Under the pieces are notes generated by a model. That model did no database searches and was not told the origin of the DNA. It saw nothing but the letters and a program-made list of their open reading frames with translations. From the NCBI GenBank assembly GCA_002690805.1, contig NZFW01000017.1, forward strand, positions 958 to 64,957: a stretch of DNA of 64,000 nt. Direction: 5' to 3'. Position 1 is the first letter of the stretch, and each line of letters begins with the position of its first letter. This DNA comes from Flavobacteriaceae bacterium. GTDB lineage: Bacteria > Bacteroidota > Bacteroidia > Flavobacteriales > Flavobacteriaceae. Positions 2,923 through 64,000 of this stretch are shown here, piece by piece. The position numbers were made by a program, and so were the translations under genes.

Positions 2923-3029
2923 TATTAAAAGTGTTATTATTGTGATATAGCAAGTGTTATTCAGATTCATAATAAAGTTTTTGAAAAACTTTGTTTTATT
3001 TAAGTATATTCGAAAATTAAACTCAAGAT

Positions 3030-3950: not shown

Positions 3951-3953
3951 TTT

Positions 3954-5828: not shown

Positions 5829-5839
5829 GTTTAATTAAC

Positions 5840-7691: not shown

Positions 7692-7789
7692 ATTCGAAAA
7701 ATTATATTACAAAAATACATAAATCAAAACTTAGAAAATATTTCTAAAAATAGATAATTATTGTACTTTTGAAAAAACAAATCTAATTT

Positions 7790-7957
7790 ATGTTTGAATT
7801 TGATCAATATCTAGGTTTTTTGGCTTTTCTATCCGTTGTTACTATTGGCTTCTGGCTTATGATATTTTTAATAACTTTCGTAATACCATATTGGCTTTTT
7901 GGATCAGCACTCGAATCTTTTAATGAGTGGAGAGCATCTAAAAAAAGCAAAAGTTAG
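7790..7957 (+). CDS. small membrane protein (55 aa), hypothetical
   Basis: Below the ORF-track cutoff. ATG 7790, TAG 7955-7957. Product MFEFDQYLGFLAFLSVVTIGFWLMIFLITFVIPYWLFGSALESFNEWRASKKSKS. It is the only ORF in a 271-nt gap. Confidence 0.25.
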   Translation: MFEFDQYLGFLAFLSVVTIGFWLMIFLITFVIPYWLFGSALESFNEWRASKKSKS

Positions 7958-7962
7958 TTCAG

Positions 7963-10464
7963 TTAAAAATCAAATTCACTATTTCCTGATTGATTTATTT
8001 GATCTCTATTTCGCTGGTTTTTCTTTTGTTTAATTCTATATGTAAAAGTTAATATATATGTTGGTTGTCTCCATTGAAATTCACCATAACTAATAAAGGT
8101 AGGTGTGATGGTTTTAGAAATTCTTTTTGATGAATTAAAAATATCACTTGCTCTAAATGAAATTGTTCCTTTGTTATTCAAAATATCTTTATTTATAGCA
8201 CTACTCATTGAAAATATTCCTTTACTTTTACTTTGTGCAGTAACTCTAGGACCACTATAATAAAACCTTGTTTGCCAATCAATATCTAAAGGAAGCTTAA
8301 TATTTGAATTCATTCTAGCAAACCAACTTAAGTTTGTTGCATCAAAACTAGTACCATTGTATGATCCGATTATTTCTGAATTAAATAAATTAAAATTTCC
8401 ATTTATTCTTACTTTTTTTGAAGGTGTGTAGGCTAAGTTAAATTCAGTTCCTATTCTATTGTTTTCAGACAAATTAATTGGGCTCAATTTTAATACAGGA
8501 ACCTCTAAAATTTCACTTTCAGAATCGTTAATATCTCCAGATATAACAACCGTCATTCCAGTATCTTGTGTAATAAAAGTAAAGACGCTAGTTGATCTTT
8601 GAAAGTATAAGGAACTGTTAAAAGTTAATTTATCCCACCTTTTAAGATATCCTAAATCAAAGGTATTTGAATAACTTGGGTTTATATTAGGATTACCCTG
8701 AAAAATATTAGTAACACTACTTCTTGAAGGGAAGGGGTTTATATATCTAGATCTAGGTCTACGAATTCTCCTGCTGTATCCTAGGGTAAAGTTTTCTTTA
8801 TCATTAAATTCATAAGATATATTTACAGTTGGAAAACCATCTATGTATTTTTTTTGAGAATACTCTGATGTGGTTTGTTGATCAATTTGAATATTGGAGC
8901 TCTCAAGACGAAGTCCTATTAGATATGAGAATTTATTAATTTTTTTTCCAAACTGAGAATAAAATGCATTCACATATTCTTTATAAGTTAATGTGTTAGA
9001 TAGATTTGTGTCCAATATATAAGTTGGAGATAATGAACTAACAGTGGATTGGTTCATATAACCAACTTCATAATCTGTTGTTTGAGTATTGAATCTTCCT
9101 CGATAACCTATTTCAAATCGAGTATGTTCATCTATTGGCCATACATAGTCTGTTTGTAATAAAAACCTTTTTTGATCTTCTAAATTTGAAACTTTTTCAA
9201 ATAAAGAAGGTAGTAAAAAAGGTAATTTTGTCATTGATTCAATTTCCCCTAATTCATCTTCTGTACTTTCTTCATATTGAATTCTTGCAGTTATTTTTTT
9301 TCCATTATCATCAAATTCATTGTCATAATCTAAAGAATATTGAAATGAATTATCTTTTTCATTTTCATTTTCAATTCTTTGGATATAGCTATCAATATCA
9401 CCTGTTACATTTAATTCATTTAAGTTATTTATGGTATTGTTTGAATTATCACTTGTTCTATAAAAACCGCTTAAAATAAGAGAGCTTTTATCATTTATGT
9501 AATACTCCAACCCTAAACTATTGAAAATACTTTTACGATTACGATAACTATTTCTTTTCTCATTTAAATAAGTGCTACCTCTTTCAAGATCTAAATATTC
9601 ATTATTGTTCAAGTAATTACCTTTAGTTTGAGTATCTCCAATGGTAGTTGTATTAAAAATATTCAATTTTTTTGTTCTCCAGTTTAGTGATGTGGAACCC
9701 CTGTTACTTCTGGGTATACCAGCATTTAAAGAAAAATTACCATTAAGACCGATTAATTCTTGTTTTTTTAAAATAATATTTAAAATACCAGCTGTACCTT
9801 CAGCATCATATCTGGCTGAAGGAGAAGTTACAACTTCAACTTTTTCGATAGACTCAGCTGGAAGTTGTCTAAGACCTTGAGGCCCAGAAATACCAACTAA
9901 ACCAGATGGCTTTCCGTTAATGAGTATCCGCACATTACTATTGCCTCTTAATGCAACAGCACCATCAACATTAACAGAAACAGATGGAACATTATCAAGA
10001 ACATCAGCAACCGAACCACCTCTAACGGTTATATCCTTGCCAACATTATAAATACGTTTATCTAATTTAATTTCTACTTCTGTTCTTTCCCCTATCACTT
10101 CAACTTCATTAAGAGTATTGACCTCAATTTCAAGTTCAATCTCACCAATATCAATAGAACTTTTTATAATTAAATCTTGCTGAATATATTTTTTAAAGGA
10201 AATAAATTCAATTATAAGTAAATATACTCCTGGACTAACTTTAATATTAAACTTACCATCTACATCACTAATTCCTCCTTGAAAATTTTCTGGATTCTTG
10301 AGGTTAGTCAAAGAAATTGTAGCATATTCAAGTGGTTGCCTTGTCTCCTTATCTATTACTTTACCTACAAGATTAATTTTTTGTAAGTTTTTGTTAGGAT
10401 TTATTTGTGCACTTGAATAAAATATAGCACCAAATAAAAGAAGTAAACAAGTTAATTTACTCAT
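7963..10464 (-). CDS. TonB-dependent outer-membrane receptor with N-terminal carboxypeptidase-regulatory-like domain
   Basis: Signal peptide MSKLTCLLLLFGAIFYSSAQ, so I prefer the internal ATG at 10464 over the track start at 10494. It has a CarbopepD_reg-like beta sandwich, a plug region (DVLDNVPSVSV) and a long beta-barrel ending in an aromatic residue (..EFDF). Confidence 0.8.
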   Translation of the reverse strand: MSKLTCLLLLFGAIFYSSAQINPNKNLQKINLVGKVIDKETRQPLEYATISLTNLKNPENFQGGISDVDGKFNIKVSPGVYLLIIEFISFKKYIQQDLIIKSSIDIGEIELEIEVNTLNEVEVIGERTEVEIKLDKRIYNVGKDITVRGGSVADVLDNVPSVSVNVDGAVALRGNSNVRILINGKPSGLVGISGPQGLRQLPAESIEKVEVVTSPSARYDAEGTAGILNIILKKQELIGLNGNFSLNAGIPRSNRGSTSLNWRTKKLNIFNTTTIGDTQTKGNYLNNNEYLDLERGSTYLNEKRNSYRNRKSIFNSLGLEYYINDKSSLILSGFYRTSDNSNNTINNLNELNVTGDIDSYIQRIENENEKDNSFQYSLDYDNEFDDNGKKITARIQYEESTEDELGEIESMTKLPFLLPSLFEKVSNLEDQKRFLLQTDYVWPIDEHTRFEIGYRGRFNTQTTDYEVGYMNQSTVSSLSPTYILDTNLSNTLTYKEYVNAFYSQFGKKINKFSYLIGLRLESSNIQIDQQTTSEYSQKKYIDGFPTVNISYEFNDKENFTLGYSRRIRRPRSRYINPFPSRSSVTNIFQGNPNINPSYSNTFDLGYLKRWDKLTFNSSLYFQRSTSVFTFITQDTGMTVVISGDINDSESEILEVPVLKLSPINLSENNRIGTEFNLAYTPSKKVRINGNFNLFNSEIIGSYNGTSFDATNLSWFARMNSNIKLPLDIDWQTRFYYSGPRVTAQSKSKGIFSMSSAINKDILNNKGTISFRASDIFNSSKRISKTITPTFISYGEFQWRQPTYILTFTYRIKQKKNQRNRDQINQSGNSEFDF

Positions 10465-10511
10465 TGAATATGAAAATAATGAAGCACTAGACAATAGCTA
10501 AATGAAAAGGT

Positions 10512-10862
10512 TTAAGAGTCAATGATAAATTTTTTCAAGTTTTCAATTGGTCTACCTATCACACCTTTTTGATTTTTTGTTATAATTGGGCGTTCAATAA
10601 GCTTTGGATGTTTAACTAATATTTCTATTAGTTGATCATTAGTTAAATCTTCATTTTTAAATAACTCTTTCCATATTTTTTCCTGTCTTCTTATTAATTT
10701 ATCAGGGGAAGTTTTAAGTTGAGATAGTATTTCTATAATATCATTTTTTACAAGTTTATTTTTTAAATAATAAACAATTTCAAACTTAATATTTTGATCT
10801 TTTAATAGATCAAGTGCTTCTCTTGATTTTCTGCATCTGGGATTGTGATATATTTTGAACAT
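10512..10862 (-). CDS. ArsC/Spx/YffB family reductase-like protein
   Basis: 116 aa; the YHNPRCRKSREAL N-terminal motif and ERPII near the C-terminus are typical of the ArsC family. Confidence 0.75.
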   Translation of the reverse strand: MFKIYHNPRCRKSREALDLLKDQNIKFEIVYYLKNKLVKNDIIEILSQLKTSPDKLIRRQEKIWKELFKNEDLTNDQLIEILVKHPKLIERPIITKNQKGVIGRPIENLKKFIIDS

Positions 10863-10873
10863 GGATTTAAAAT

Positions 10874-10897
10874 AAAAAAAACTGCTATTAGCAGGTT
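10874..10897 (-). terminator. possible rho-independent terminator after rplT
   Basis: On the minus strand: CTGCT-AAT-AGCAG (5-bp stem) followed by T8. The stem is short, so this is weak. Confidence 0.4.
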
Positions 10898-10915
10898 TAA
10901 TTTATACTAAAAGCT

Positions 10916-11260
10916 TTATTTAATTTTTTTTACAATCGCATTAAAGGCATCAGGATTGTTCATAGCTAAGTCAGCTAAAACTTTTCTATTTAAATCAATT
11001 TTATTTGACTTAATTTTGTACATGAATTGACTGTAAGACATTCCATTTAATCTTGCTGCTGCGTTTATCCTTGAAATCCACAAACTTCTGAAATTTCTTT
11101 TGTTATTTTTCCTATCTCTGTAGGCGTAGGACATAGCCTTCTCAACTGCATTTTTTGCGATTGTCCAGACATTTTTTCTACGTCCAAAATATCCTTTTGC
11201 TTGTTTTAATATTTTTTTTCTTCTAGCTCTTGAAGCTACTGAGTTTACTGATCTAGGCAT
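10916..11260 (-). CDS. rplT: 50S ribosomal protein L20
   Basis: 114 aa starting [28 protein letters not shown], a canonical L20. Confidence 0.97.
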
Positions 11261-11346
11261 GATTATTTGTTTTTTGAATTAGGCGACTATTAAAAGTTCT
11301 TAAAGCCTATATTCAGGGTTATTAATTTTTGACCATTAACTTACAA

Positions 11347-11544
11347 TTATTTTAAGCGTAATTGTACTTTAATATTATCTTCATCACTTTTATGAACTAA
11401 TCCAGAATGAGTTAATGCAAGTTTTCTTTTTTTGGACTTTTTTGTCAGGATGTGACTTTTAAATGCATGCTTTCGTTTAATTTTACCTGATCCGGTAACT
11501 TTAAACCTCTTTTTTGCACTTGATTTTGTTTTCATTTTTGGCAT
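11347..11544 (-). CDS. rpmI: 50S ribosomal protein L35
   Basis: 65 aa starting [25 protein letters not shown], a canonical L35. Confidence 0.95.
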
Positions 11545-11563
11545 AACCTAAGTTTAAATTTGT

Positions 11564-12118
11564 TTATTTTTTCTTTGGTGTTATGAACATGATCATTCTT
11601 TTACCTTCCAATTCGGGCAATTGTTCAACTTTCCCCCATTCTTCTAGATCTTGAGCTAATCTAAGTAATAATATATGACCTTGTTCTTTAAATATTATTG
11701 ATCTTCCTTTAAAAAAAACAAAAGCTTTGAGCTTTGCACCATCTTTTAAAAATTTTTCAGCATGTTTCTTTTTAAACTCATAGTCATGGTCATCAGTATT
11801 GGGACCAAATCTTATTTCTTTAATTACTACTTTTGTAGCTTTCGATTTTAAGGATTTTTCTCTTTTTTTCTGTTCGTATAAAAACTTTTTGTATTCAAGA
11901 ATCTTACAAACAGGTGGGACGGCTTTTGGAGAAATTTCTACTAAATCTAGCCCTTGGTTTCTTGCAAGAATAAGTGCTTGAGGAAGCTTATAAACCCCAA
12001 CTTCAACATTGTTTCCAACCAACCTAATTTCATGAGCTGTAATTTTCTCATTGATTAAATGAGGATTTTCCTTGATAACTCTACCAGGACGATTTGTTCT
12101 TCTTCTTCGAATTGCTAT
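11564..12118 (-). CDS. infC: translation initiation factor IF-3 (non-AUG start inferred)
   Basis: The track ORF (from ATG 12022) lacks the conserved N-terminal region. The frame stays open upstream and reads (I)[36 protein letters not shown], which is the normal IF-3 N-terminus. ATA at 12118-12116 is the likely initiator. Confidence 0.85.
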
Positions 12119-16860: not shown

Positions 16861-16925
16861 TATAAATTATTTCAAATTTTAAAAAAGTAACATTCACGTT
16901 TTTCGTCAGAGGTTAAATTTCAATG

Positions 16926-50818: not shown

Positions 50819-52930
50819 ATGAAAAAAAGTCTCCTTACTACATTTCTAATTATTATTTTCTCTTGTCAAAATGAGAAGTCACTTATATATCCGAAAACAA
50901 AAAAAATAAACGTAATAAGCAATTATTTTGATTCCGAGATCATTGATCCATATAGATGGCTTGAGGATGATAGATCTGATGAAACAGAGCGGTGGGTAAA
51001 AAAACAAAATGAAGTTACTTTTAAATATTTAAACAAAATACCTTATAAAAATAAACTTAAAGAGAGGTTAGAAAAATTATGGAACTATGAGAAAGTTTCA
51101 GCTCCCTTTGAAGAAGGAGAATACACATACTTTTATAAAAACGATGGGTTACAGGACCAGTATGTTGTTTATAGAAAAGATTCTAACGATGTAATAGAGA
51201 CTTTTATTAACCCTAATCTTTTTTCGAAAGATAAAACTACTTCACTGGCTGGTTTAAGTTTTTCTAAAAGCGGGAAAATATGTGCTTATAGTGTTTCAGA
51301 GGGTGGAAGTGATTGGAGAAAAATTATAGTAATGGATGTTGCTAGTAAAAAAATAATTGAGGATACCCTTGTTGATATTAAGTTTAGTGGAATATCTTGG
51401 AAAAATGATGAAGGGTTTTTTTATTCATCCTATGATAAACCAAAAGGAAGCGAACTTTCTGACAAAACAGATCAACATAAATTATACTTTCATAAATTAA
51501 ATACATCTCAACAAGATGATGTCATATTTTATGGAGGTATAAAAGAGCAAAAAAATAGATATGTTGGAGGAAGTGTATCTGAAGATGGTCGTTTTTTATT
51601 TATTTCTGCAAGTAAATCAACGTCAGGAAATAAGCTTTTAGTAAAAGATCTATTAAATGATAAATCACCATTAAAAAGTATTATTGATAATTATGATTCT
51701 GATACGTATGTTTTAGAAACAATCAATGATGATTTTTTTCTTGTAACTAATATAAATGCCCCTAATAAAAAAGTAGTAAAAACTAACTTTAATAATTTAA
51801 GTCTAAATGAATGGGAAGAAATAATTCCTAATACTAAGAATGTTCTAAATGCCTCTTCTGGAGGAGGTTTTTTATTTGCAGAATATATGATTGATGCATT
51901 TTCTCAAGTATATCAATATGACTTTGAAGGTAATAAAATACGTAAAATTAATCTACCTGGAATTGGCTCGGTCGGCGGTTTTAGTGGTAAAATAAATAAA
52001 AAATCTCTTTACTTTTCATTTACAAATTATCATACACCTAGCTCAATATATGAATATGATATTAAGACAGGTAATTTTGATTTGTATTGGAGTCCAAAAA
52101 TTGATTTTAATTCTACAAATTACATTTCAAAACAAGTTTTTTATAATTCTAAAGATGGTACAAAAGTTCCAATGATAATTACTCATAAAAAAGGACTTGA
52201 GTTAGATGGCAAAAATCCAACTATTTTATATGGATACGGTGGATTTAATATTAGTTTAACTCCAGGGTTTAGTGTGACAAATATTTTATGGATGGAGTAT
52301 GGAGGAGTTTATGCAGTACCAAATATCAGAGGTGGAGGAGAATATGGAAAATCATGGCATATAGCTGGAACTCAATTAAATAAACAAAATGTTTTTGATG
52401 ATTTTATTTCAGCTGCAGAATTTTTAATTTCTGAAAAATATACTAGTTCAGATTATCTAGCAATTCGTGGTGGGTCTAATGGTGGACTTTTGGTTGGAGC
52501 TACAATGACGCAAAGACCTGATCTTATGAGAGTGGCTTTACCAGCTGTTGGTGTTTTAGATATGTTAAGATATCATACATTTACAGCTGGTGCTGGATGG
52601 GCTTATGACTATGGTACTTCAGAAGATTCTGAAAAGATGTTTAAATACCTTTTAGGGTATTCTCCTGTTCATAATGTAAAGAATGGAATTAAATACCCTG
52701 CTACACTAATTACAACAGGAGATCACGATGATAGAGTTGTTCCAGCGCATTCATTTAAATTTGCAGCAGAACTACAGGACAAACAAATAGGTGTTTCTCC
52801 AACACTCATAAGGATTGAAACAAATGCCGGACATGGAGCAGGAACCCCAATTTCTAAAACTATTGAGCAATATGCTGATATTTATGGATTTACCTTTTAT
52901 AATATGGGATATGAAAAATTACCTAATTAA
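50819..52930 (+). CDS. prolyl oligopeptidase (S9A family), lipoprotein signal
   Basis: 703 aa with DPYRWLED at the N-terminus, the catalytic Ser in GGSNGGLL, Asp in GDHDDRV and His in AGHG. Confidence 0.9.
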   Translation: MKKSLLTTFLIIIFSCQNEKSLIYPKTKKINVISNYFDSEIIDPYRWLEDDRSDETERWVKKQNEVTFKYLNKIPYKNKLKERLEKLWNYEKVSAPFEEGEYTYFYKNDGLQDQYVVYRKDSNDVIETFINPNLFSKDKTTSLAGLSFSKSGKICAYSVSEGGSDWRKIIVMDVASKKIIEDTLVDIKFSGISWKNDEGFFYSSYDKPKGSELSDKTDQHKLYFHKLNTSQQDDVIFYGGIKEQKNRYVGGSVSEDGRFLFISASKSTSGNKLLVKDLLNDKSPLKSIIDNYDSDTYVLETINDDFFLVTNINAPNKKVVKTNFNNLSLNEWEEIIPNTKNVLNASSGGGFLFAEYMIDAFSQVYQYDFEGNKIRKINLPGIGSVGGFSGKINKKSLYFSFTNYHTPSSIYEYDIKTGNFDLYWSPKIDFNSTNYISKQVFYNSKDGTKVPMIITHKKGLELDGKNPTILYGYGGFNISLTPGFSVTNILWMEYGGVYAVPNIRGGGEYGKSWHIAGTQLNKQNVFDDFISAAEFLISEKYTSSDYLAIRGGSNGGLLVGATMTQRPDLMRVALPAVGVLDMLRYHTFTAGAGWAYDYGTSEDSEKMFKYLLGYSPVHNVKNGIKYPATLITTGDHDDRVVPAHSFKFAAELQDKQIGVSPTLIRIETNAGHGAGTPISKTIEQYADIYGFTFYNMGYEKLPN

Positions 52931-54003
52931 AAATAGTTAAAACTTTCTCCAGGCTTAATTTTTTGGATACTCTCATAAATTAATCTAATTACATTTTCTA
53001 AATCTTCTTTCTGAATCATTTCAACTGTAGTATGCATGTACCTGAGTGGTAAAGAGATAAGAGCAGATGCAACTCCACCATTACTGTAGGCAAATGCATC
53101 TGTATCAGTTCCTGTGTAACGAGACGAAGCTAACCTTTGAAAAGGAATTTTATTCTTTTTGGCAACTGAAATTATTCTTTCTCTAAGTTTATTGTGTACA
53201 GCTGGTGCGTATGATATTACGGGGCCATCACCAATTTGTGTTTTACCTTGTTCTTTTTGATTTATCATTGGTGTAGAAGTATCATGACAGACATCTGTAA
53301 CAATAGCAACATTTGGTTTAATTGTTTGTGTAATCATTTCAGCACCGCGAAGTCCTACTTCCTCCTGAACGGAATTTGTTATATACAATCCAAAAGGTAA
53401 TTTTATATTATTTTCATTTAGTAATCTGGCAACCTCTGCTATCATAAATCCACCAGCTCTATTATCAATAGCTCTACAAACAAATTTATTTTTATTCAAA
53501 ATTTGAAAAGTATCTGGATATGTAATTACACACCCAACGTGAACTCCCATTCTTTCAACTTCTTTTTTGTCCTTAGCCCCAATATCAATACAAATATTAT
53601 CAAGCTTTGGTACTTCTTCCTTTCCTGGTTTTCGGGTATGAATTGCTGGCCATCCAAAAACTCCTTTTACTATCCCTTTTTCAGTATGAATATTTACCCA
53701 TTTAGATGGAGCAATTTGATGATCACTTCCACCATTTCTAATAACATAAATTAAACCATTATCTGTTATAAAATTAACATACCATGATATTTCATCAGAA
53801 TGCCCTTCAATTACTACCTTATATTCAGCCTTGGGGTTTATAACTCCGACTGCTGTTCCATAGACATCAGTAATGAATTCATCAACATATGGTTTTAAGT
53901 ATTCCATCCAAATTTTTTGACCATTAGCTTCATAGCCCGTAGGCGCTGAATTATTTAAATATTTTTCTAAAAAATCAATTGACTTCTGATTTAAAATTTT
54001 CAT
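52927..54003 (-). CDS. M42 family metallopeptidase (glutamyl aminopeptidase-like)
   Basis: 358 aa; the HSDEIS, DNRAG, QEEVGLRGA and HT motif layout is typical of M42. Confidence 0.85.
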   Translation of the reverse strand: MKILNQKSIDFLEKYLNNSAPTGYEANGQKIWMEYLKPYVDEFITDVYGTAVGVINPKAEYKVVIEGHSDEISWYVNFITDNGLIYVIRNGGSDHQIAPSKWVNIHTEKGIVKGVFGWPAIHTRKPGKEEVPKLDNICIDIGAKDKKEVERMGVHVGCVITYPDTFQILNKNKFVCRAIDNRAGGFMIAEVARLLNENNIKLPFGLYITNSVQEEVGLRGAEMITQTIKPNVAIVTDVCHDTSTPMINQKEQGKTQIGDGPVISYAPAVHNKLRERIISVAKKNKIPFQRLASSRYTGTDTDAFAYSNGGVASALISLPLRYMHTTVEMIQKEDLENVIRLIYESIQKIKPGESFNYF

Positions 54004-58010: not shown

Positions 58011-58046
58011 GAATGTTCAATTACATATTTATATTAAATTTATTGT

Positions 58047-58286
58047 ATGAATCCCATCGAAAAGTATTTAAGATCTAATCCCAAAATAGCATCAATAATC
58101 TATTTTTCTACCCTAGGATTTATAGTCCTTACAATTTATTCTGATATTATTTCAACTGAACCAATCCTATATATTCCTGATGAGATTGACACTTTGGTAT
58201 TCTTTTTTTTTCTTTATATAACATATATAGCTATCATGATTCAAAAAGATAAAAAAGATAAAAATGATAAAAATGATAAAAAATAA
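58047..58286 (+). CDS. small two-TM protein with repetitive KDKKDKNDKNDKK tail, hypothetical
   Basis: 79 aa with two hydrophobic helices. It sits immediately upstream (22 nt) of the first array paralog. Confidence 0.45.
   Translation: MNPIEKYLRSNPKIASIIYFSTLGFIVLTIYSDIISTEPILYIPDEIDTLVFFFFLYITYIAIMIQKDKKDKNDKNDKK
58248..58283 (+). repeat. 4 x 9-nt in-frame tandem repeat (GATAAAAAW)
   Basis: gataaaaaa gataaaaat gataaaaat gataaaaaa, encoding DKK DKN DKN DKK at the 3' end of the small ORF. Confidence 0.8.
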
Positions 58287-58308
58287 TCAATAAGAATTAA
58301 AAAATTAA

Positions 58309-59355
58309 ATGGCTATTTTAAATAAAATAAATCAATCTTCTAGTCAAAAAAAAAAGAGATTTAATATTAGGTACATTCTCGCAGAAATTTTTTTAATTAC
58401 CGCTGGGATACTTATAGCTCTCGCAATAGATAATTGGAATACTGATAGAGCAGAGCAAAAGATGATAAAAAAGTATCTAATTGAAATGTACAAAGAGTAT
58501 AATAATGAAATTAAAAGACTTCAAGAAAGTAAAAATAATTTAAAGTTATCAACTGAAAGAAATGCAAGAGCCCTTAACATTATAAAAAATTCACAACATG
58601 ATTCAATATCAGTTTTAGAAGAATTATTAATCGGAATAGGAAACCCTGTAAATGTTGAAAATCAATTCCCAATAACAAAAGAGTTTTTAGACCAAAATCT
58701 TCTTTATAAGATTAAGAATGAAAAAATAAAGAATCAAATTAAAAATTTCTCTTTCTATCTTGGATTTAATAATAAAATAAATGAATTTGAAACAAATCAG
58801 TATATCAATACCATAGAGCCGTTTATAAAAGATAACATTAACTACAGTAAAATATGTTGTCCAAATTTAAAATCATTTATGATTCAAGGTGGATTAAAAA
58901 CAAACTTCAAATCATTAATGAAAAATATGGAATTTTGGAATATTTTAAGTTTTAAAAGAGAATGGTTACTTCTTAATTCAGGAGTTATTGATTATACAAT
59001 TTATTTTTTAGAGACTATAATTGAAGAGATTGATAATGAGTTGTTAGAAGAAATAAAATTAGCTGAAATGTCTGATACAGGAAGATTAGGTATTTCAGCA
59101 ATAAAAGAGGTAGAAGGATTTAAACTTACTATAATCGAATCTGGAGGACCGGCATTTAAAGCTGGTTTAAAAAAAGGTGATTTAATTATTATGGTTACTC
59201 AACCCGATGCAGATCCAGTCGATATTAGTGAAATGGACTTTTTTGATGCAATGAAGCTTATTGTTGGACCAATTGGAACAACTGTGGTTCTAACTGTTAA
59301 AAGAACTGATGGAACTATTGAAGATATATCTGTAGTAAGAGATGTTGTTAAATAA
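58309..59355 (+). CDS. DUF6090-like single-pass membrane protein (family A copy 1) with C-terminal PDZ domain
   Basis: 348 aa. The N-terminus MAILNKINQSSSQKKKRFNIRYILAEIFLITAGILIALAIDNWNTDR is shared with four downstream genes. Residues from about 245 onward (GFKLTIIESGGPAFKAGLKKGDLIIMV...GPIGTTVVLTVKRTDGTIEDISVVRDVV) are PDZ-like. Confidence 0.75.
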   Translation: MAILNKINQSSSQKKKRFNIRYILAEIFLITAGILIALAIDNWNTDRAEQKMIKKYLIEMYKEYNNEIKRLQESKNNLKLSTERNARALNIIKNSQHDSISVLEELLIGIGNPVNVENQFPITKEFLDQNLLYKIKNEKIKNQIKNFSFYLGFNNKINEFETNQYINTIEPFIKDNINYSKICCPNLKSFMIQGGLKTNFKSLMKNMEFWNILSFKREWLLLNSGVIDYTIYFLETIIEEIDNELLEEIKLAEMSDTGRLGISAIKEVEGFKLTIIESGGPAFKAGLKKGDLIIMVTQPDADPVDISEMDFFDAMKLIVGPIGTTVVLTVKRTDGTIEDISVVRDVVK

Positions 59356-59365
59356 TATATAAATT

Positions 59366-60058
59366 ATGAAAAAACTTGCTTTAAGATATTCTTTAGAATT
59401 CATAGTGATAGTTTTTGGAATTTCAATTTCTTTTTATTTGGAAAAACAAAATGCTTTATCTTATAAAGAAGATTTGAAAAACGAATCTCTTTCAAAGTTA
59501 AAAGATAATATTAATGCAGAAATTGATGGATTAATATTTGATATAAAAGTTCACAGTAATGCTTCCAAATATGGAGATATTATATATGATAGAGGTGAAG
59601 ATTTATATATGAAAAATAAGGACTCTCTGGGTTTTTATCTTTCATATGTAATTTATGCTACAACAATTTACGTTGATAATAATGAAGAGTATTCTTCGCT
59701 AAAAAATTCTGGATTAATTGAATTAATAGAAAATAGAAATTTAATTAGTTTACTTCAGAATAAATATTCACAACATAGTTATTATAAAGAAGCAGGTAAT
59801 ATGTTTACTGAACTTTATTTTGACAATAATTCTTTAAGAAAATATTTAGATTCTAAAAACAGAAAAAAGCATTGGGGTTTACCAGCATATTCAACTTCAT
59901 TTAAAAGTGATATGAAATATATAAATGATACTGAAATTAATATGATTTCAAGTAAATCAATTCTTCACAAGTTATATTCAAATCTCTTAAAAGAGGCTTT
60001 AAAAACGGATTCTTTGATTTTAAAAGAAATTTCCAAGGAGATATCAATAAATTTATAA
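59366..60058 (+). CDS. DUF6090-like single-pass membrane protein (family B copy 1)
   Basis: 230 aa with the N-terminal anchor LEFIVIVFGISISFYLEKQ. It shares NNEEYSSLKNSGLIELIEN..L..LQNKY with the 60367-61059 gene. Confidence 0.65.
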   Translation: MKKLALRYSLEFIVIVFGISISFYLEKQNALSYKEDLKNESLSKLKDNINAEIDGLIFDIKVHSNASKYGDIIYDRGEDLYMKNKDSLGFYLSYVIYATTIYVDNNEEYSSLKNSGLIELIENRNLISLLQNKYSQHSYYKEAGNMFTELYFDNNSLRKYLDSKNRKKHWGLPAYSTSFKSDMKYINDTEINMISSKSILHKLYSNLLKEALKTDSLILKEISKEISINL

Positions 60059-60310
60059 ATGAAAACAATTCTGTTTGTGATTTTGATAATTTGGGGTATT
60101 CCAAGTTCATATTTTAGAAGTAAGTTTAGAAAAATTATATATCAAACGGATGATTGGAAGATTAATATTAAACCTCTTTTTAAAAAAGAAATTGTAGGAC
60201 TATTGTCTAATATATACCCTAACAACAAGCAATATCTTAAGGCCAGGAAGTATTATGTGATATATTTATTGGTTTATTTTTTTTTATTTCTAGTATATTT
60301 AAAATATTAA
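60059..60310 (+). CDS. small membrane protein (83 aa, TM helices at both ends), hypothetical
   Basis: The ATG directly abuts the TAA of the upstream gene (TAAATG). Hydrophobic N- and C-termini. Confidence 0.45.
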   Translation: MKTILFVILIIWGIPSSYFRSKFRKIIYQTDDWKINIKPLFKKEIVGLLSNIYPNNKQYLKARKYYVIYLLVYFFLFLVYLKY

Positions 60311-60366
60311 ACTTAATTATTTAATTAATTTGAATGATATGTTGTCTTGATGATGAAATTTGTTTT

Positions 60367-61059
60367 TTAGTTGATTTCTTCTAAAATTTTAGATATTAAA
60401 ACCTCATCAGTTTTAGTCAAGTTATTAATTCGTTTTATGTAAAGTGAATGCCACCATCTCTTATCTCTAAGAGCTTGAATAATTCCTGTTGGAAAAGTAT
60501 AATTACCAACATATGATACATCAACTGGGTAGCCCCTAGAATTGGTATTATTGCTTTTCAAAAATATATTTTCATATCTAAATTCTTTTAAAAAAAAGAC
60601 ATACTTATCTATTTCGTCCTCGAGATGCTTCATATACTCATGATCAACATATTTATTTTGCAAACCAATTACAATATCTTCATTATCAATGAACTCTATT
60701 AATCCTGAATTTTGAAGACTTCTATATTCTTCCTGATTGTCATAAAAAGTAGTACTTATAAACATAGCATTTTGAATATAATACCCGATTGAATCTTTGG
60801 GGTAATTTTCAAGAGACTTGTAATTTAATGTTATCCAGTCAATAGCATTAATCGCATCTAAATGTGCATTAGTATTAAAGCTGTAATCTAAATTATCAAC
60901 TTCCAAATTTTTTAAAATTCTATTTAATGATTGAGTTTTTAAATTTTCTTTGTAACCAACCTCACGTTGGTATTCAATTAAAAATGACAATGATAAACCA
61001 AGGGTTATAATTATTAGTTCAATACCATAATAGATTATTTTATTTTTCTTCTTTTTCAT
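60367..61059 (-). CDS. DUF6090-like single-pass membrane protein (family B copy 2)
   Basis: 230 aa with the anchor IELIIITLGLSLSFLIEYQ. It shares YKENLK, DNQEEYRSLQNSGLIEFIDN and LQNKY with family B copy 1. Confidence 0.65.
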   Translation of the reverse strand: MKKKKNKIIYYGIELIIITLGLSLSFLIEYQREVGYKENLKTQSLNRILKNLEVDNLDYSFNTNAHLDAINAIDWITLNYKSLENYPKDSIGYYIQNAMFISTTFYDNQEEYRSLQNSGLIEFIDNEDIVIGLQNKYVDHEYMKHLEDEIDKYVFFLKEFRYENIFLKSNNTNSRGYPVDVSYVGNYTFPTGIIQALRDKRWWHSLYIKRINNLTKTDEVLISKILEEIN

Positions 61060-61226
61060 TTTATAAAGTTTTAAAAATAGATATCTAAAAATTATTAAAA
61101 TAAAATTATTAGAAACCAGTTTTTTTTAATAAAATACTTTTAAAGTTATCACTATTTATAATAATCTAAAGGTCGCATTTGTTTTTTAAAATTTTATATA
61201 TTGTTATTTATTAAAAATTATAAATT

Positions 61227-61547
61227 ATGAAAAAAGGATACTGGTCTGGTCAAGTTATGGAAGTGAAGAATGCCGAAAAATGGAATAAATATCTTGAGAA
61301 ATATACTGCTATTGCTCAAAATGAAGCTCAAAATAACACAGGTAATTATAAGCCCATTGGTATGGGTGTTCCAGCAAAAATTATTCAAGGAGAAAACCTC
61401 ATGTATGCAGCTCTTGTCGAATTTAACAGTCTACAAGATGCTTTAGATTGTTATAATAGCGAAAGTTATCAAGAGGCCCTAAAGGAACTTGGTGAGAATC
61501 CTGAAGACACTGTCATTAGAAATTTATCTATTGTTGAAGGGGTTTAA
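61227..61547 (+). CDS. DUF1330 domain-containing protein
   Basis: 106 aa, soluble. The KGYW N-terminus, the A.LVEF..L..A...Y.S..YQEA core and the size fit DUF1330 (dimeric alpha+beta barrel), from memory. Confidence 0.6.
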   Translation: MKKGYWSGQVMEVKNAEKWNKYLEKYTAIAQNEAQNNTGNYKPIGMGVPAKIIQGENLMYAALVEFNSLQDALDCYNSESYQEALKELGENPEDTVIRNLSIVEGV

Positions 61548-61595
61548 ATTGGATTTTCAATATAGTTAGTTAAACACATTTTTATATAATTTTCA

Positions 61596-62363
61596 ATGGC
61601 TATTTCGAATAAAATTAATGAAGCTTTAAGTCCCACTAATAAAAGATTTAACATAAAGTTTATTCTTGCTGAAGTTTTTTTAATTACAGCAGGGATACTT
61701 ATAGCTCTGGCTATTGATAACTGGAATACAGACAGAGCAGAACAGGAAATGATTGAAAAGTATCTTATTCAAATGCATAAAGAATTTTATAATGAGATAG
61801 ATAGAATTGAAGGTGAAAGAAAACAATTTTATAAATCTTCCTTAGATAAAAACCTAAGAGCATTAAAAATCATAAAAAATAATCAAATTGATTCAATATC
61901 AGTTTTAGAAAATTTGTTAGTTGGAATTAGTAATCCATTAAGTACTAGTGCAAATATTCCTATTACTAAAGAGTTTTTAAAACAAAACTTATTATATAAA
62001 ATCAAAAATGAAAATTTAAAAAATGAGCTTAAAATGTTTCCAACTTATTTAGAAGGGAATGATTATTTAATTGATTTTGAAACTAATCAATATATAAACA
62101 CTATTGAACCTTTTGTTACATCAAATATGAATTATACTCAACTTTTAACATCTTATAGAAAACCTTACATGGTTGATGGAGGACCTAAAACAGATTTTAA
62201 GAGATTGATGAAAGGATATGAGCTTTGGAATATAGTTAGTTATAAAAGGGAGTGGCTTTTGGCTTATTCTGGAGCTCTAGATGGTATTGGTTTTGTATTA
62301 AATAAATTAAAAAAAGAAATTGAAAATGAATTGGGAGATAAGCTTACTATAAAAAATCAATAA
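61596..62363 (+). CDS. DUF6090-like single-pass membrane protein (family A copy 2)
   Basis: 255 aa starting MAISNKINEALSPTNKRFNIKFILAEVFLITAGILIALAIDNWNTDRAEQ. It is the closest relative of copy 1, alignable over its whole length. Confidence 0.75.
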   Translation: MAISNKINEALSPTNKRFNIKFILAEVFLITAGILIALAIDNWNTDRAEQEMIEKYLIQMHKEFYNEIDRIEGERKQFYKSSLDKNLRALKIIKNNQIDSISVLENLLVGISNPLSTSANIPITKEFLKQNLLYKIKNENLKNELKMFPTYLEGNDYLIDFETNQYINTIEPFVTSNMNYTQLLTSYRKPYMVDGGPKTDFKRLMKGYELWNIVSYKREWLLAYSGALDGIGFVLNKLKKEIENELGDKLTIKNQ

Positions 62364-62378
62364 AAACTATATTATAAA

Positions 62379-63122
62379 ATGGCTATATCAAATAAAATAA
62401 ATCAATCTTTTGATGAAAAAAAAAGTAGATTTAGTATTAAATATATTCTTGCTGAAGTTTTTCTCATAACTGCAGGTATACTTATAGCTTTAGCAATTGA
62501 TAATTGGAATACTGACAGGTCAGATCAAAAAAAAATTCATACATATTTAATTGAAATAAAAAAAGAATTTGAACAAGAACAAAAATATTTATCAGAACAA
62601 TTCATACCAGCACAAAAAAAACGAATTGAATTAAATAAAAGAGCGTTGTCTATAATTCAAAATAAGCAAGTTGACTCTACAGATGTTCTTCAGGATTTAT
62701 TATATACTATGACTCATTTTTTTGTATATCTTCCAACCGGACCAATGTATGATGAGTTTATGGATCAAAATTTACTATATAAAATTAAAAATGAAGATTT
62801 AAAATTTTATTTAAAACAAGGAAATGAAGCTGGTAAAGATTTTGAAAGATGGTTTGAATTTTATAAAGTAGAATACGAAAATATTTATAAACCATTTATG
62901 GTTAAAAATCTCAATTACAGTGAAATTGTTTTGGATGAAGATGGTTATTTCAAAGGAGGTACCCCTACAAACTATAAAAAATTATTTAATAATTTAGAAT
63001 TTTGGAATATAGTCAATTTTAAGGGGGAAAGAATGAGAAAAATGTTGCAAAGGTGTGAGAGTATTTTACCAGCTTATAAATACGGAATTGATCTTCTTGA
63101 TAAAGAGTTAGGTTCAAAATAA
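62379..63122 (+). CDS. DUF6090-like single-pass membrane protein (family A copy 3)
   Basis: 247 aa with the same N-terminal module and shared QNLLYKIKNED and LEFWNIVNFKG motifs. 15-nt spacer from copy 2. Confidence 0.75.
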   Translation: MAISNKINQSFDEKKSRFSIKYILAEVFLITAGILIALAIDNWNTDRSDQKKIHTYLIEIKKEFEQEQKYLSEQFIPAQKKRIELNKRALSIIQNKQVDSTDVLQDLLYTMTHFFVYLPTGPMYDEFMDQNLLYKIKNEDLKFYLKQGNEAGKDFERWFEFYKVEYENIYKPFMVKNLNYSEIVLDEDGYFKGGTPTNYKKLFNNLEFWNIVNFKGERMRKMLQRCESILPAYKYGIDLLDKELGSK

Positions 63123-63133
63123 TATATATTAAA

Positions 63134-63877
63134 ATGGCTATTTCAAATAAAATAAATCATTACTCTAATTCGGGAAATAGAAGAAAATTTAATTTTAAAT
63201 ATGTTCTTGCTGAAATTTTCCTTATTACCGCAGGAATTTTAATAGCGTTAGGTATAGACAATTGGAACAATAATCGAATTGAGCAAAATGAGGTTGATAA
63301 ATATCTAATAGAAATAAAAAAGGAACTAGAAAATAATATCAAATGGAGTACTAAAAGAAAAATAAATTTTGAAAAAAAAATTAAAGAAAATAAAAGAGTT
63401 TTAAATATTTTAAACGAAAACAATAAAGATTCTATAGTTATATTAAAAAAATTATTAGATCATATAAATAGAGCATCTTCTCAGAAACCCAATGTTCCAA
63501 TTTTTGAAGAGTTTCTCAATCAAGATTTTTTACCTAAAATCAATGATGATGAATTGAGACAAAATCTAAAAGCATATAAAATAGGTCTTGAGATGGCTGA
63601 AATTTATGACGAATTTGATAGAGAAGAAGTAAGAGATGTTGTTAAACCCTTTATGTTAGAAAATATAAATTATGGTCAGATATATTATTCTACACTTAAG
63701 TTTGAGGAAGGTGGACCTGTCACAGATTTTAGCAATCTCTTTGATAATTTAAAATTTTATAACATAGTTAATTTTCGAGGTGCAAGGCTAAAGAGTCAGT
63801 TAGAGGCAATAAATTTCCAATCAATCTGGATGAAAAAGACTATTTCCCTTTTGGATAAAGAATTAAAAAATAAATAA
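63134..63877 (+). CDS. DUF6090-like single-pass membrane protein (family A copy 4)
   Basis: 247 aa with the same N-terminal module (GILIALGIDNWN) and a more divergent ectodomain. 11-nt spacer. Confidence 0.75.
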   Translation: MAISNKINHYSNSGNRRKFNFKYVLAEIFLITAGILIALGIDNWNNNRIEQNEVDKYLIEIKKELENNIKWSTKRKINFEKKIKENKRVLNILNENNKDSIVILKKLLDHINRASSQKPNVPIFEEFLNQDFLPKINDDELRQNLKAYKIGLEMAEIYDEFDREEVRDVVKPFMLENINYGQIYYSTLKFEEGGPVTDFSNLFDNLKFYNIVNFRGARLKSQLEAINFQSIWMKKTISLLDKELKNK

Positions 63878-63885
63878 AATATCTA

Positions 63886-64000
63886 ATGGCTATTTCAAAT
63901 AAAATAAATCAATCCTATAATTCAGGAAACAGGAAATTTAATTTAAAGTATATTCTTGCTGAAGTTTTCCTAATTACAGCAGGAATTCTTATTGCTCTTG
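63886..64000 (+). CDS. DUF6090-like single-pass membrane protein (family A copy 5), truncated by the window end
   Basis: ATG 63886, 8 nt after the copy 4 stop. It reads MAISNKINQSYNSGNRKFNLKYILAEVFLITAGILIAL... Confidence 0.7.
   Translation, partial: MAISNKINQSYNSGNRKFNLKYILAEVFLITAGILIAL

What the first reader, a model, noticed from the sequence alone, without database searches (positions are those of the whole stretch)
58309..64000. Tandem array of at least five DUF6090-like single-pass membrane paralogs, still running at the window edge
Five same-strand ORFs (58309-59355, 61596-62363, 62379-63122, 63134-63877, 63886 to beyond 64000) open with the same module: MAI(S/L)NKIN, 8-10 variable residues, then (R/K)F-x-(I/F/L)(K/R)(Y/F)(I/V)LAE(V/I)FLITAGILIAL(A/G)IDNWN. 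They share internal islands (YLIE.KKE, RAL.II.N, (E/D)EF(L/M).QNLLYKIKNE, NY at about residue 170, GG(L/P/T).T(N/D)(F/Y), EFWNI(V/L).FK) but are otherwise strongly diverged; by eye only copies 1 and 2 are close. The last four are separated by only 8-15 nt, with no hairpins between them, so they look like one transcription unit. The predicted topology is a short basic cytoplasmic tail, one TM helix and a roughly 200-aa helical-looking extracytoplasmic domain. From memory the GILIAL-I-NWN anchor is the hallmark of the Bacteroidota-specific family DUF6090, which has no assigned function. In a genome this compact (overlapping stops, 10-60 nt spacers), carrying seven homologs in 5.7 kb is conspicuous. 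It suggests a diversified periplasmic or envelope recognition module (sensor, scaffold, phage- or substrate-facing protein) rather than redundancy. This is the only clearly accessory-looking locus in the window.
Basis: partly seen in the sequence, partly recalled or inferred. Interest (0 to 1): 0.7.

Follow-up and report, generated by a model that had tools for sequence, protein, structure and literature searches.

The report
Tandem DUF6090-like membrane protein array
A marine flavobacterium carries seven old, diverged copies of an uncharacterised single-pass membrane protein (DUF6090 superfamily) side by side; such arrays recur in related bacteria, so this one is ordinary for the family, but one copy is fused to a peptide-binding PDZ domain and varies sharply between strains.

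Summary
Five same-strand paralogs (c1-c5, 39-62% identical) share a conserved tail-plus-membrane-helix module, and two more distant homologs (d1, d2) lie between c1 and c2.

Related metagenome contigs show that the array stops at c5 (246 aa). It does not run on.

The copies score below Pfam's DUF6090 threshold one by one. A profile built from them reaches over 6,000 protein clusters, and 65 of 74 sampled members hit DUF6090, so they are divergent members of that family.

The AlphaFold model is confident (pLDDT 93). It shows a membrane helix continuing into a long helical bundle that has no solved structural relative.

The duplications are ancient and every copy is under purifying selection. 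Conspecific strains keep the same order at 94-99.6% amino-acid identity, except at c1. There the interior is about 73% identical and other strains carry two PDZ copies.

Tandem DUF6090 arrays also occur in Winogradskyella (11 genes) and Aestuariibaculum (4 genes). No gene neighbour is conserved and no paper mentions the family.

The function remains inferred. I propose membrane-anchored periplasmic binding or adaptor modules. Interest is moderate.

The parts
58047..58286 (+). tm79: a small protein with two hydrophobic segments and a Lys/Asp-rich tail, 22 nt upstream of c1. It may be co-transcribed with c1. Whether it belongs to the system is uncertain.
   Evidence: It is an ORF with two hydrophobic segments. 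It lies directly upstream of the array in the same species and in a second species, at 61-64% aa identity. It hits no protein family.
58309..59355 (+). c1: a DUF6090-like bitopic membrane protein of 348 aa with a C-terminal PDZ domain.
   Evidence: It matches the A2 family HMM at E 1.3e-66. The AlphaFold model (pLDDT 86.6) shows a helical bundle followed by a PDZ fold. It is 59.5% identical to c2.
59080..59337 (+). PDZ domain of c1 (about aa 258-343), of the Prc/CtpA/HtrA type, with an RLGI carboxylate-binding loop.
   Evidence: Pfam PDZ_2 scores 26.3 bits against a gathering score of 27. The copy A allele in another strain passes, with 30.1 and 28.1 bits. NCBIfam finds matches to S41 peptidases over the PDZ only. 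The best PDB sequence hit is 6bxg at E 5.6e-5. Foldseek gives 6bxg_A at E 1.7e-5, TM 0.78 and rmsd 2.4 A.
58460..59269 (+). Strain-variable interior of c1. It is about 73% nt identical to either PDZ copy of a conspecific haplotype, while the first 150 nt and last 90 nt of the gene are 97-99% identical to copy B.
   Evidence: Mismatch density per 30 nt shows the boundaries. c1 is 68-69% aa identical to copies A and B with dS 0.66-0.82, against dS 0.02-0.16 for all neighbouring genes.
59366..60058 (+). d1: a distant DUF6090-superfamily paralog of 230 aa with a short N-terminal signal anchor.
   Evidence: It is 31% identical to d2. It matches the A3 HMM at E 4e-79. The A2 and A3 profiles match at hhalign probability 96.6%.
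60059..60310 (+). tm83: a small hydrophobic protein whose start codon directly follows the d1 stop. Role unknown.
   Evidence: It is an ORF with hydrophobic ends. It is present in the conspecific loci examined (genes called; not called in some) and absent in the L005 species. It hits no family.
60367..61059 (-). d2: the second distant paralog (230 aa), and the only family member on the reverse strand.
   Evidence: It matches the A3 HMM at E 1.3e-99. It has 23 homologs in marine metagenomes, often as single genes elsewhere. hhalign links its family to the c-type profile.
61227..61547 (+). A DUF1330 gene embedded in the array. It heads the same-strand block DUF1330-c2-c3-c4-c5 and is probably an unrelated passenger.
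   Evidence: Pfam DUF1330 scores 38.8 bits against a gathering score of 23. It is conserved in this position in the same species and absent from the L005 species array.
61596..62363 (+). c2: a DUF6090-like paralog of 255 aa.
   Evidence: It matches the A2 HMM at E 3.7e-68. It is 98.8-99.6% identical in conspecific strains.
62379..63122 (+). c3: a DUF6090-like paralog of 247 aa, and the copy that was modelled.
   Evidence: Pfam DUF6090 scores 18.7 bits, below threshold. The AlphaFold model has pLDDT 93.2 and pTM 0.83 and is all helical. Its ortholog in a second species is 87-88% aa identical with dN/dS 0.10.
63134..63877 (+). c4: a DUF6090-like paralog of 247 aa.
   Evidence: Pfam DUF6090 scores 16.0 bits, below threshold. 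It matches the A2 HMM at E 1.8e-70. It is 62% identical to c5.
63886..64000 (+). c5: the first 38 codons of the last paralog. The full gene is 246 aa in related contigs and the array ends with it.
   Evidence: It is 97-100% identical to the 246-aa gene at L008:10001-10741 and L001:5642-6382. No further family member lies within 10 kb downstream.

Best explanation
**What it is (shown)**
- This is a chromosomal, vertically inherited array in an uncultured marine Flavobacteriaceae (Tara Oceans MAG).
- It holds seven ancient paralogs of the DUF6090 superfamily: five c-type and two distant d-type.
- Each encodes a bitopic inner-membrane protein with these parts:
  - a short basic cytoplasmic tail;
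  - one membrane helix with an invariant Glu a few residues in from the cytoplasmic side;
  - an NWN motif at the periplasmic interface;
  - a helical periplasmic domain of about 200 aa, built from three long helices of 39-50 residues and shorter connecting helices.
- c1 also carries a Prc/CtpA-type PDZ domain at the end of the last helix.

**How it most likely works (inferred)**
- The conserved tail-plus-helix module, with its buried Glu, anchors every copy in the same way. It may dock them to a common membrane partner encoded elsewhere.
- The diverged helix surfaces would give each copy its own periplasmic binding specificity for envelope proteins or peptides.
- The PDZ copy would capture free C-termini of periplasmic or outer-membrane proteins.
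- The array would then be a set of sub-functionalised, membrane-tethered periplasmic adaptor or holdase modules. By analogy it resembles helical adaptors such as NlpI or LbcA working with PDZ proteases, or the membrane-anchored chaperone partner YfgM.

**Confidence**
- Identity, architecture and evolutionary description: about 0.9.
- The adaptor mechanism: about 0.3.
For: **Family membership**
- A profile of the window copies and their close relatives finds 6,231 cluster representatives at E<=1e-3, mostly as full-length matches of about 250 aa.
- Of 74 sampled members, 65 hit PF19578.
- NCBI names some of these relatives 'DUF6090 family protein'.
- The d-type profile links to the c-type profile by hhalign at 96.6% probability.

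**Genes are functional and old**
- Between species, dN/dS is 0.09-0.25.
- Synonymous sites between paralogs are saturated, including in the conserved N-module: dS 0.7-1.6 with dN 0.11-0.22, against dN 0.31-0.78 in the ectodomain.
- The N-module is therefore kept by selection on the protein, not by gene conversion.

**Topology**
- K/R residues are enriched before the helix in 63 of 74 proteins.
- The PDZ's closest structural relatives are PDZ domains of periplasmic proteases.

**Structure**
- pLDDT is 93.2 for c3 and 86.6 for c1.

**Conserved core**
- The membrane Glu is the only invariant column in 74 diverse members. It is also invariant in the d-type alignment.
- The PDZ loop G-[LI]-G-[IVF] is kept in 5 of 6 alleles.

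**Self-contained arrays**
- Among 84 neighbouring genes from 15 diverse loci, no Pfam family recurs in more than 2.
- Arrays recur in other genera.
Against: - No experiment, paper or characterised homolog bears on function.
- The helical domain has no significant structural match. The best Foldseek E-values are 0.19 in PDB and 0.16 in BFVD. The adaptor or holdase analogy therefore rests on architecture alone.
- No ligand and no membrane partner was identified.
- The PDZ fusion is confined to this lineage, so it may not reflect the function of the family as a whole.
The positions of conserved and variable residues in the fold are inferred from the order of secondary-structure elements only.
- The single-operon idea rests on gene spacing. 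The promoter scan found no more sites than in shuffled sequence, and no TAnnTTTG motif lies in the intergenic spacers.
Confidence: 0.45

Rival explanations
1. The array encodes immunity or exclusion proteins. Each membrane-anchored periplasmic paralog would neutralise a different periplasm-acting toxin from competitors, or block phage DNA entry at the inner membrane. The strain-variable c1 position would reflect an arms race.
For: - Tandem arrays of diverged paralogs with a periplasmic location fit this picture.
- c1 shows an old, sharply bounded allelic replacement, and PDZ copy number varies between conspecific haplotypes.
- Array composition differs between species at one chromosomal site.
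- The array has lower GC than the rest of the window, 25.0% against 29.0%.
Against: - No toxin, secretion-system effector, integrase or mobile-element gene lies next to any array examined.
- There are no PADLOC or PHROGs hits and no phage or plasmid homologs.
- Six of the seven copies are nearly fixed within the species. c3 and c5 are 86-88% conserved between species with dN/dS about 0.1.
- No region of c1 has dN/dS above 1; the maximum is 0.73.
- Motifs are strongly conserved across the whole family, which is unusual for immunity proteins.
Confidence: 0.12
2. The proteins are accessory subunits of a proton-motive-force motor or energy-transducing complex, working like ExbD, TolR or TonB. The membrane-embedded Glu would couple to an ExbB/TolQ/MotA-like channel. 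The long helical bundle, and the PDZ in c1, would reach across the periplasm to distinct outer-membrane targets.
For: - The only invariant residue across the c-type and d-type families is a Glu 4-5 residues into the single membrane helix from the cytoplasmic side. From my own knowledge, this recalls ExbD D25, TolR D23 and MotB D32.
- The first periplasmic helix is about 50 residues long, roughly 75 A.
- Many paralogs would suit a phylum with many TonB-dependent transporters. This point also rests on my own knowledge.
Against: - No copy and none of 74 relatives hits the Pfam ExbD/TolR, TonB or MotB families.
- No ExbB/TolQ/MotA-like gene lies beside any array, and no neighbour family recurs.
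- Foldseek found no similarity to solved stator or GldM/PorM structures.
Confidence: 0.08
3. The proteins are periplasmic ligand sensors or co-receptors. The helical bundle would bind small molecules or glycans, as a four-helix-bundle chemoreceptor domain does. The signal would pass through the membrane helix and conserved cytoplasmic tail to an unlinked kinase, anti-sigma factor or transporter.
For: - The cytoplasmic tail is unusually conserved: MAISNKIN in this lineage and MIKFFRKIRQ across the family.
- The ectodomain is a helical bundle.
- Weak, non-significant Foldseek hits include a soluble chemoreceptor, 3g67, at E 1.2.
Against: - The tail is only about 20 residues long and has no output domain.
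- No regulator recurs among the neighbours.
- No sensor-domain family is hit.
- The structural matches are not significant.
Confidence: 0.1
4. The ORFs are decaying duplicates or spurious ORFs in AT-rich DNA and have no function.
For: - GC content is low, at 25%.
- No copy reaches a Pfam gathering score on its own.
Against: - All copies are intact in more than 15 independent contigs from different ocean samples.
- dN/dS is 0.03-0.3.
- The fold prediction is confident.
- Thousands of homologs exist.
Confidence: 0.01

Closest known systems
Pfam PF19578 (DUF6090), annotated by NCBI as 'DUF6090 family protein'
   Same: - The architecture matches: about 250 aa, a basic tail, and a membrane helix with the (A/G)E(I/V)xL(I/V)xxGILIALxI(N/D)NWN motif.
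- The same internal islands are present (DS, P..EF, PF..N.NY, GGP.T(D/N)).
- The profile built from the window copies recovers DUF6090 proteins.
- The family also forms same-strand tandem arrays with a conserved N-module and diverged ectodomains, as in the 11-gene array of W. eximia.
   Different: - The window copies fall below the Pfam gathering score, or are not hit at all. Only the first 58-85 of 182 model positions align.
- The tail motif is MAISNKIN rather than MIKFFRKIRQ.
- The d-type copies are detectable only by profile-profile comparison.
- One or two copies per array carry a PDZ fusion. Among the 150 and 120 best-scoring relatives listed, it appears only in this lineage.
PDZ domains of C-terminal processing peptidases (MEROPS S41: Prc/Tsp, CtpA, CtpB) and HtrA proteases
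   Same: - The C-terminal domain of c1 has the same fold and similar sequence (6bxg_A: 30% identity, TM 0.78, rmsd 2.4 A).
- It has a G-hydrophobic-G-hydrophobic carboxylate-binding loop.
- The expected periplasmic location is the same.
   Different: - There is no protease domain; the protein ends right after the PDZ.
- NCBIfam scores are 22-34 bits against cut-offs of 218-825.
- The PDZ is mounted on a membrane-anchored helical bundle instead.
Type II secretion protein GspC, and membrane-anchored periplasmic helical partners such as YfgM (analogies by architecture, from my own knowledge)
   Same: Each is a bitopic inner-membrane protein with a short cytoplasmic tail, one membrane helix and a periplasmic domain. 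GspC ends in a PDZ domain. YfgM has a helical periplasmic domain of about 170 aa.
   Different: - No sequence or structural similarity was detected.
- No secretion or Sec-associated genes lie nearby.
- The periplasmic HR domain of GspC is a beta structure, not helical.
ExbD/TolR/MotB stator subunits (own knowledge)
   Same: Each has a single N-terminal membrane helix with a conserved acidic residue near the cytoplasmic face, and a periplasmic C-terminal domain.
   Different: - There is no homology.
- The periplasmic fold is different.
- No adjacent channel-subunit gene is present.

Membership tests
DUF6090 (PF19578) | The protein reaches the Pfam gathering score (23.5 bits) on its own | tested here: not met
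   c3 scores 18.7 and c4 scores 16.0. c1, c2, d1 and d2 are not hit. The full-length c5 ortholog scores 20.0.
DUF6090 (PF19578) | Homology to recognised members, shown by profile search | tested here: met
   The A1 profile finds 6,231 cluster representatives. Of 74 sampled, 65 hit PF19578, with a best E of 2.7e-12. Relatives are named 'DUF6090 family protein' by NCBI. The d-type family matches by hhalign at 96.6% probability and E 5e-10.
DUF6090 (PF19578) | Architecture: about 230-265 aa, a single N-terminal membrane helix with the GILIAL.I(N/D)NWN motif, and no other domain | tested here: met
   c2-c5 are 246-255 aa with one hydrophobic segment at residues 18-43. The motif is present. c1 departs from this by its PDZ fusion, and the d-type copies lack NWN.
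DUF6090 (PF19578) | Found in Bacteroidota | tested here: met
   A Flavobacteria L19 leader lies in the window. The proteins are identical to those of a Flavobacteriaceae MAG. A few family members also occur in MAGs labelled Gammaproteobacteria.
PDZ domain (c1 only) | Pfam PDZ model at gathering score | tested here: inconclusive
   Window c1 scores 26.3 bits on PDZ_2 against 27, and 21.2 on PDZ against 23.2. The homologous copy A allele passes with 30.1 and 28.1 bits.
PDZ domain (c1 only) | PDZ fold with a carboxylate-binding loop | tested here: met
   The AlphaFold model has beta strands and two helices at residues 262-343, with pLDDT 84-94. Foldseek gives 37 PDB matches at E<=1e-3; all those listed are PDZ-containing proteases or an isolated PDZ domain, the best with TM 0.78. 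The RLGI loop is present.
S41 C-terminal processing peptidase | Catalytic Ser/Lys peptidase domain | tested here: not met
   Only the PDZ segment aligns. The score is 33.6 bits against a cut-off of 218.6, and the protein ends at the PDZ.
ExbD/TolR/MotB-type stator subunit | Sequence homology to the family, and an adjacent ExbB/TolQ/MotA-like gene | tested here: not met
   No such Pfam hit appears at E<=1 for the window copies, or at E<=0.01 for 74 relatives. No such neighbour is present.
Known anti-phage defence systems or phage proteins | A match to PADLOC or PHROGs models, or to phage or plasmid records | tested here: not met
   There are no hits in any of these.

The most novel reading that the evidence does not exclude
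DUF6090 proteins would be a new class of bitopic inner-membrane proteins. Their buried, invariant Glu would plug them into an unlinked polytopic partner, for example a proton-driven 5:2 motor or a translocon. Their periplasmic helical bundles, with no solved structural relative, would act as interchangeable heads that reach and bind distinct envelope targets. The PDZ-tipped member would be kept as ancient, recombining alleles in the population because its target, or an attacker such as a phage or toxin that exploits it, varies between strains.
Probability: 0.1. Interest if true: 0.75.

Novelty: new variant of a known kind. Interest (0 to 1): 0.4.

Why it matters
- DUF6090 is a large family. 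At least 8,000 proteins were found in public data and more than 6,000 clusters at 50% identity.
- Its members are envelope proteins of marine and other Bacteroidota. The family has no assigned function, no mention in the searchable literature and no solved structural relative.
- This locus adds four usable handles:
  - a confident structural model;
  - an invariant membrane-embedded Glu to mutate;
  - a natural PDZ fusion that points to binding of protein C-termini in the periplasm;
  - a strain-variable position whose alleles can be followed in ocean metagenomes.
- On its own it does not overturn anything. It is a typical array of an uncharacterised family.

Tried and rejected
- **Direct family searches.** Pfam, NCBIfam, PADLOC and PHROGs scans of every copy gave only sub-threshold DUF6090 hits and the PDZ.
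- **Solved structures by sequence.** A profile search of PDB sequences found nothing below E 0.01.
- **Structure comparison.** Foldseek of the c3 model against PDB and viral structures found no match at E<=1e-3. The top hits were generic long-helix proteins.
- **Gene neighbourhood.** Among 84 neighbours from 15 diverse loci, no family occurs more than twice.
- **Promoters and terminators.** The sigma-70 and terminator scan found no more sites than in shuffled sequence. No TAnnTTTG motif lies in the intergenic spacers. The operon structure stays inferred from spacing.
- **Mobile elements.** There are no phage or plasmid homologs.
- **Literature.** Three searches (DUF6090, PF19578, descriptive terms) returned no papers.
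- **Gene conversion as the cause of the conserved N-module.** Rejected, because synonymous sites there are saturated.
- **Positive selection on c1.** No region has dN/dS above 1.
- **Genome collection scan.** It did not return the window's own species, so within-species comparisons rest on metagenome contigs.

Full report
**1. The observation**

Pairwise BLASTP identities are as follows.

| Pair | Identity |
|---|---|
| c1-c2 | 59.5% |
| c1-c3 | 50.4% |
| c1-c4 | 39.4% |
| c2-c3 | 42.5% |
| c2-c4 | 39.2% |
| c3-c4 | 42.3% |

E-values run from 1e-56 to 1e-105. The 38 available residues of c5 are 71-82% identical to the other N-termini. The spacers are 15, 11 and 8 nt, and no terminator-like hairpin lies between c2 and c5.

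Two more ORFs lie between c1 and c2: d1 (59366-60058, +) and d2 (60367-61059, -). They are 31% identical to each other (E 2e-37) and barely similar to the c copies by BLAST. A 19-sequence d-type alignment matches a 74-sequence c-type/DUF6090 alignment over its full length by profile-profile comparison (probability 96.6%, E 5e-10, 223 columns). The count of seven homologs in 5.7 kb is therefore correct.

**2.

- *c1 carries a PDZ domain.* c1 is 100 aa longer than the others because of it. Pfam PDZ_2 scores 26.3 bits against a gathering score of 27. NCBIfam finds PDZ-only matches to S41 peptidases. The best PDB sequence hit is the PDZ of a tail-specific protease, 6bxg, at E 5.6e-5. The AlphaFold model of c1 (pLDDT 86.6) has the last long helix running to residue 256, a short low-confidence linker, and then a beta-rich PDZ fold. 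Foldseek gives 37 PDB matches at E<=1e-3. All those listed are PDZ-containing proteases or an isolated PDZ domain (Ctp, Prc, CtpA, CtpB, DegQ, DegS, HtrA). The best is 6bxg_A, with TM 0.78 and rmsd 2.4 A over 92 columns.
- *The array ends at c5.* In seven longer contigs of the same species, c5 is a 246-aa gene. It is followed by an unrelated 126-aa gene and a reverse-strand Lactamase_B gene. HMM searches find no further member within 10 kb.
- *Source of the window.* The window's M42 peptidase is identical to NCBI MAH81997.1 from a Tara Oceans Flavobacteriaceae MAG. Its contig is only 65,361 nt, so c5 is also partial in the source record. An L19-Flavobacteria leader at 16888-16915 agrees with this taxon.

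**3. Family assignment**

Taken one at a time, the copies do not reach the DUF6090 gathering score of 23.5 bits. c3 scores 18.7, c4 scores 16.0, the c5 ortholog scores 20.0, and c1, c2, d1 and d2 score nothing. Only the first 58-85 of 182 model positions align.

A word-indexed search with c3 found only 17 close relatives, all from marine metagenomes. A profile of these, searched exhaustively, found 6,231 cluster representatives at E<=1e-3 (479 at 1e-10). Most are full-length matches to proteins of about 250 aa. Of 74 sampled, 65 hit PF19578 (best E 2.7e-12). A second search returned at least 7,998 proteins, some named 'DUF6090 family protein' by NCBI.

The window copies are therefore a divergent branch of the DUF6090 superfamily. 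Among the 150 and 120 best-scoring relatives listed, the PDZ fusion appears only in this lineage. A few members occur in MAGs labelled Gammaproteobacteria, so the family may not be strictly confined to Bacteroidota.

**4. Structure and topology**

The c3 model is confident (pLDDT 93.2, pTM 0.83). It has a helix from residue 20 to 94, which is the membrane segment continuing about 50 residues into the periplasm. Further helices lie at 98-111, 122-129, 139-177 and 206-245. c1 has the same pattern.

Each c copy has one hydrophobic segment at residues 18-43. Across 74 family members, the 15 residues before the helix hold 4.4 K/R on average and the 15 after it hold 2.7. In 63 of 74 proteins the count is higher before the helix. 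This gives N-in, C-out. The protease-type PDZ fits a periplasmic C-terminus.

Foldseek found no significant relative of the helical domain in PDB (best E 0.19) or in viral models (best E 0.16). A profile search of PDB sequences also found nothing.

The only invariant column across 74 diverse members is a Glu near the cytoplasmic end of the membrane helix (E26 in c3). The d-type alignment also keeps an invariant Glu there.

**5. Evolution**

- *The paralogs are old.* Synonymous sites are saturated between copies. This holds in the conserved N-module too: dS is 0.7-1.6 and dN 0.11-0.22 there, against dN 0.31-0.78 in the ectodomain. The module is therefore conserved by selection on the protein, not by recent gene conversion.
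- *Strains of the same species.* Three contigs are 98% identical to the window over 10 kb and fully collinear. Against the L013 haplotype, every flanking and array gene is 94-99.6% identical in amino acids, with dS 0.02-0.16. The exception is c1, which is 68-69% identical to either of two PDZ-bearing copies, with dS 0.66-0.82.
- *Haplotypes.* Eight contigs from different samples (L003 is a ninth, starting inside copy B) carry two PDZ copies: A (350 aa) and B (354 aa) upstream of d1. The window type has one.
- *Mosaic structure of c1.* Its first 150 nt and last 90 nt are 97-99% identical to copy B. The interior, 58460-59269, is about 73% identical to either copy. The region from the end of the AhpC-like gene through tm79 is also more diverged than other flanks.
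- *No positive selection detected.* No region of c1 has dN/dS above 1. The highest values, 0.5-0.73, are in the last helix and the PDZ.
- *A doubtful haplotype.* One contig (L001) has copy A joined to the 3' end of copy B. This is either a deletion or an assembly chimera.
- *A second species.* Its flanks are 79% nt identical. At the same chromosomal site, after the AhpC-like gene and tm79, the array reads c4-like, c5-like, PDZ copy, c3-like. It lacks d1, tm83, d2, DUF1330 and c2. Its orthologs compare as follows: c3 87% aa (dN/dS 0.10), c5 86% (0.09), c4 74%, c1 63% (0.25). The flanking genes are 76-91% identical. Further short contigs show other arrangements.

Most of the array is thus a fixed, constrained gene set within the species. 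Its content is reshuffled between species, and the PDZ position varies between strains.

**6. How unusual is the array?**

Loci recovered from the genome collection with this subfamily's motifs mostly hold a single member. However, Winogradskyella eximia has 11 same-strand members in 9 kb with the same design: a near-identical N-module and ectodomains 33-92% identical (median 48%). Aestuariibaculum sediminum has four in tandem. Tandem arrays are therefore a recurrent trait of the family and not a peculiarity of this window.

**7. Function**

- No paper mentions the family.
- No neighbour is conserved. Among 84 neighbouring genes from 15 diverse loci, no Pfam family recurs in more than two.
- There are no defence-system, phage or plasmid links.

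The evidence that bears on mechanism is therefore limited to:

- the bitopic periplasm-facing architecture;
- the strongly conserved tail and helix with a buried Glu;
- the diverged helical surfaces under purifying selection;
- the protease-type PDZ on one member.

I infer a set of membrane-tethered periplasmic binding or adaptor modules with different specificities. They may dock through the membrane helix to a partner encoded elsewhere, with the PDZ member catching protein C-termini. I hold the mechanism at about 0.3 and the descriptive account at about 0.9.

The rivals are an immunity or exclusion array, ExbD/TonB-like energy-coupling subunits, sensors or co-receptors, and non-functional ORFs. 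They are set out separately with their tests.

**8. Verdict**

- The locus is a divergent, PDZ-containing variant of a catalogued but uncharacterised family, organised in the way that family often is.
- Interest is moderate (0.4). The value lies in the handles it gives on a large unknown envelope family, not in any surprise about the locus itself.

Noticed in passing
window 16888-16915 (-): An L19-Flavobacteria ribosomal protein leader scores 41.7 bits against a gathering score of 31.5. It is the only Rfam match in the window. No tRNA genes were found.
   Followed up: no
window 52927-54003 (-), and the window as a whole: The M42 peptidase is identical to NCBI MAH81997.1 from a Tara Oceans 'Flavobacteriaceae bacterium' MAG (locus tags CMC21_*). 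Its contig is 65,361 nt long, so the source record itself ends inside c5. This species was not returned by the scan of GTDB representative genomes.
   Followed up: partly
window 58011-58308 (tm79 and its spacers): The small two-helix protein upstream of the array ends in a KDKKDKNDKNDKK tail whose length differs between strains (79, 76 or 73 aa). This stretch is only about 80% nt identical to a conspecific haplotype whose other flanking genes are 94-99% aa identical. The variable zone therefore starts upstream of c1.
   Followed up: partly
window 61227-61547 (+): A DUF1330 gene (38.8 bits) sits inside the array and heads the c2-c5 block. It is present in all conspecific contigs and absent from the array of the second species.
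   Followed up: no
window 58309-64000 compared with 1-58308: The array is the most AT-rich part of the window, with GC 25.0% against 29.0% elsewhere.
   Followed up: no
L005:11809-12564 compared with window 62379-63122: The c3 ortholog in the second species is 86.6% nt and 87-88% aa identical. That is above the 79% nt identity of the adjacent housekeeping block. Either c3 is under unusually strong constraint or it was exchanged between the species.
   Followed up: partly
L001:60-1112: The 350-aa gene is identical to copy A except for its last ~60 nt (and the downstream DNA), which match copy B. It runs straight into d1. This is either a natural deletion of copy B by recombination between the paralogs or a chimeric assembly. 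The contig starts 59 nt upstream of the gene.
   Followed up: partly
L073 and L074 (Winogradskyella eximia), 2951-11925: An 11-gene DUF6090 array lies between an aldehyde dehydrogenase gene and a GIY-YIG gene, with a bacterial alpha-2-macroglobulin gene just beyond the latter. In one of the two records a member is split into 110-aa and 138-aa ORFs.
   Followed up: partly
L054, L057, L058, L064 and L071: Family members occur in MAGs labelled Gammaproteobacteria or Woeseiaceae. L054 has three members within 13 kb. This points to horizontal transfer out of Bacteroidota or to contamination of the bins.
   Followed up: no
record of 104,430,999 nt in ERZ23491652 (no DNA returned): This record carries copy A next to FliE and sigma-54 activator genes that are foreign to the flavobacterial context. 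It is most likely a concatenated or chimeric record and was ignored.
   Followed up: no
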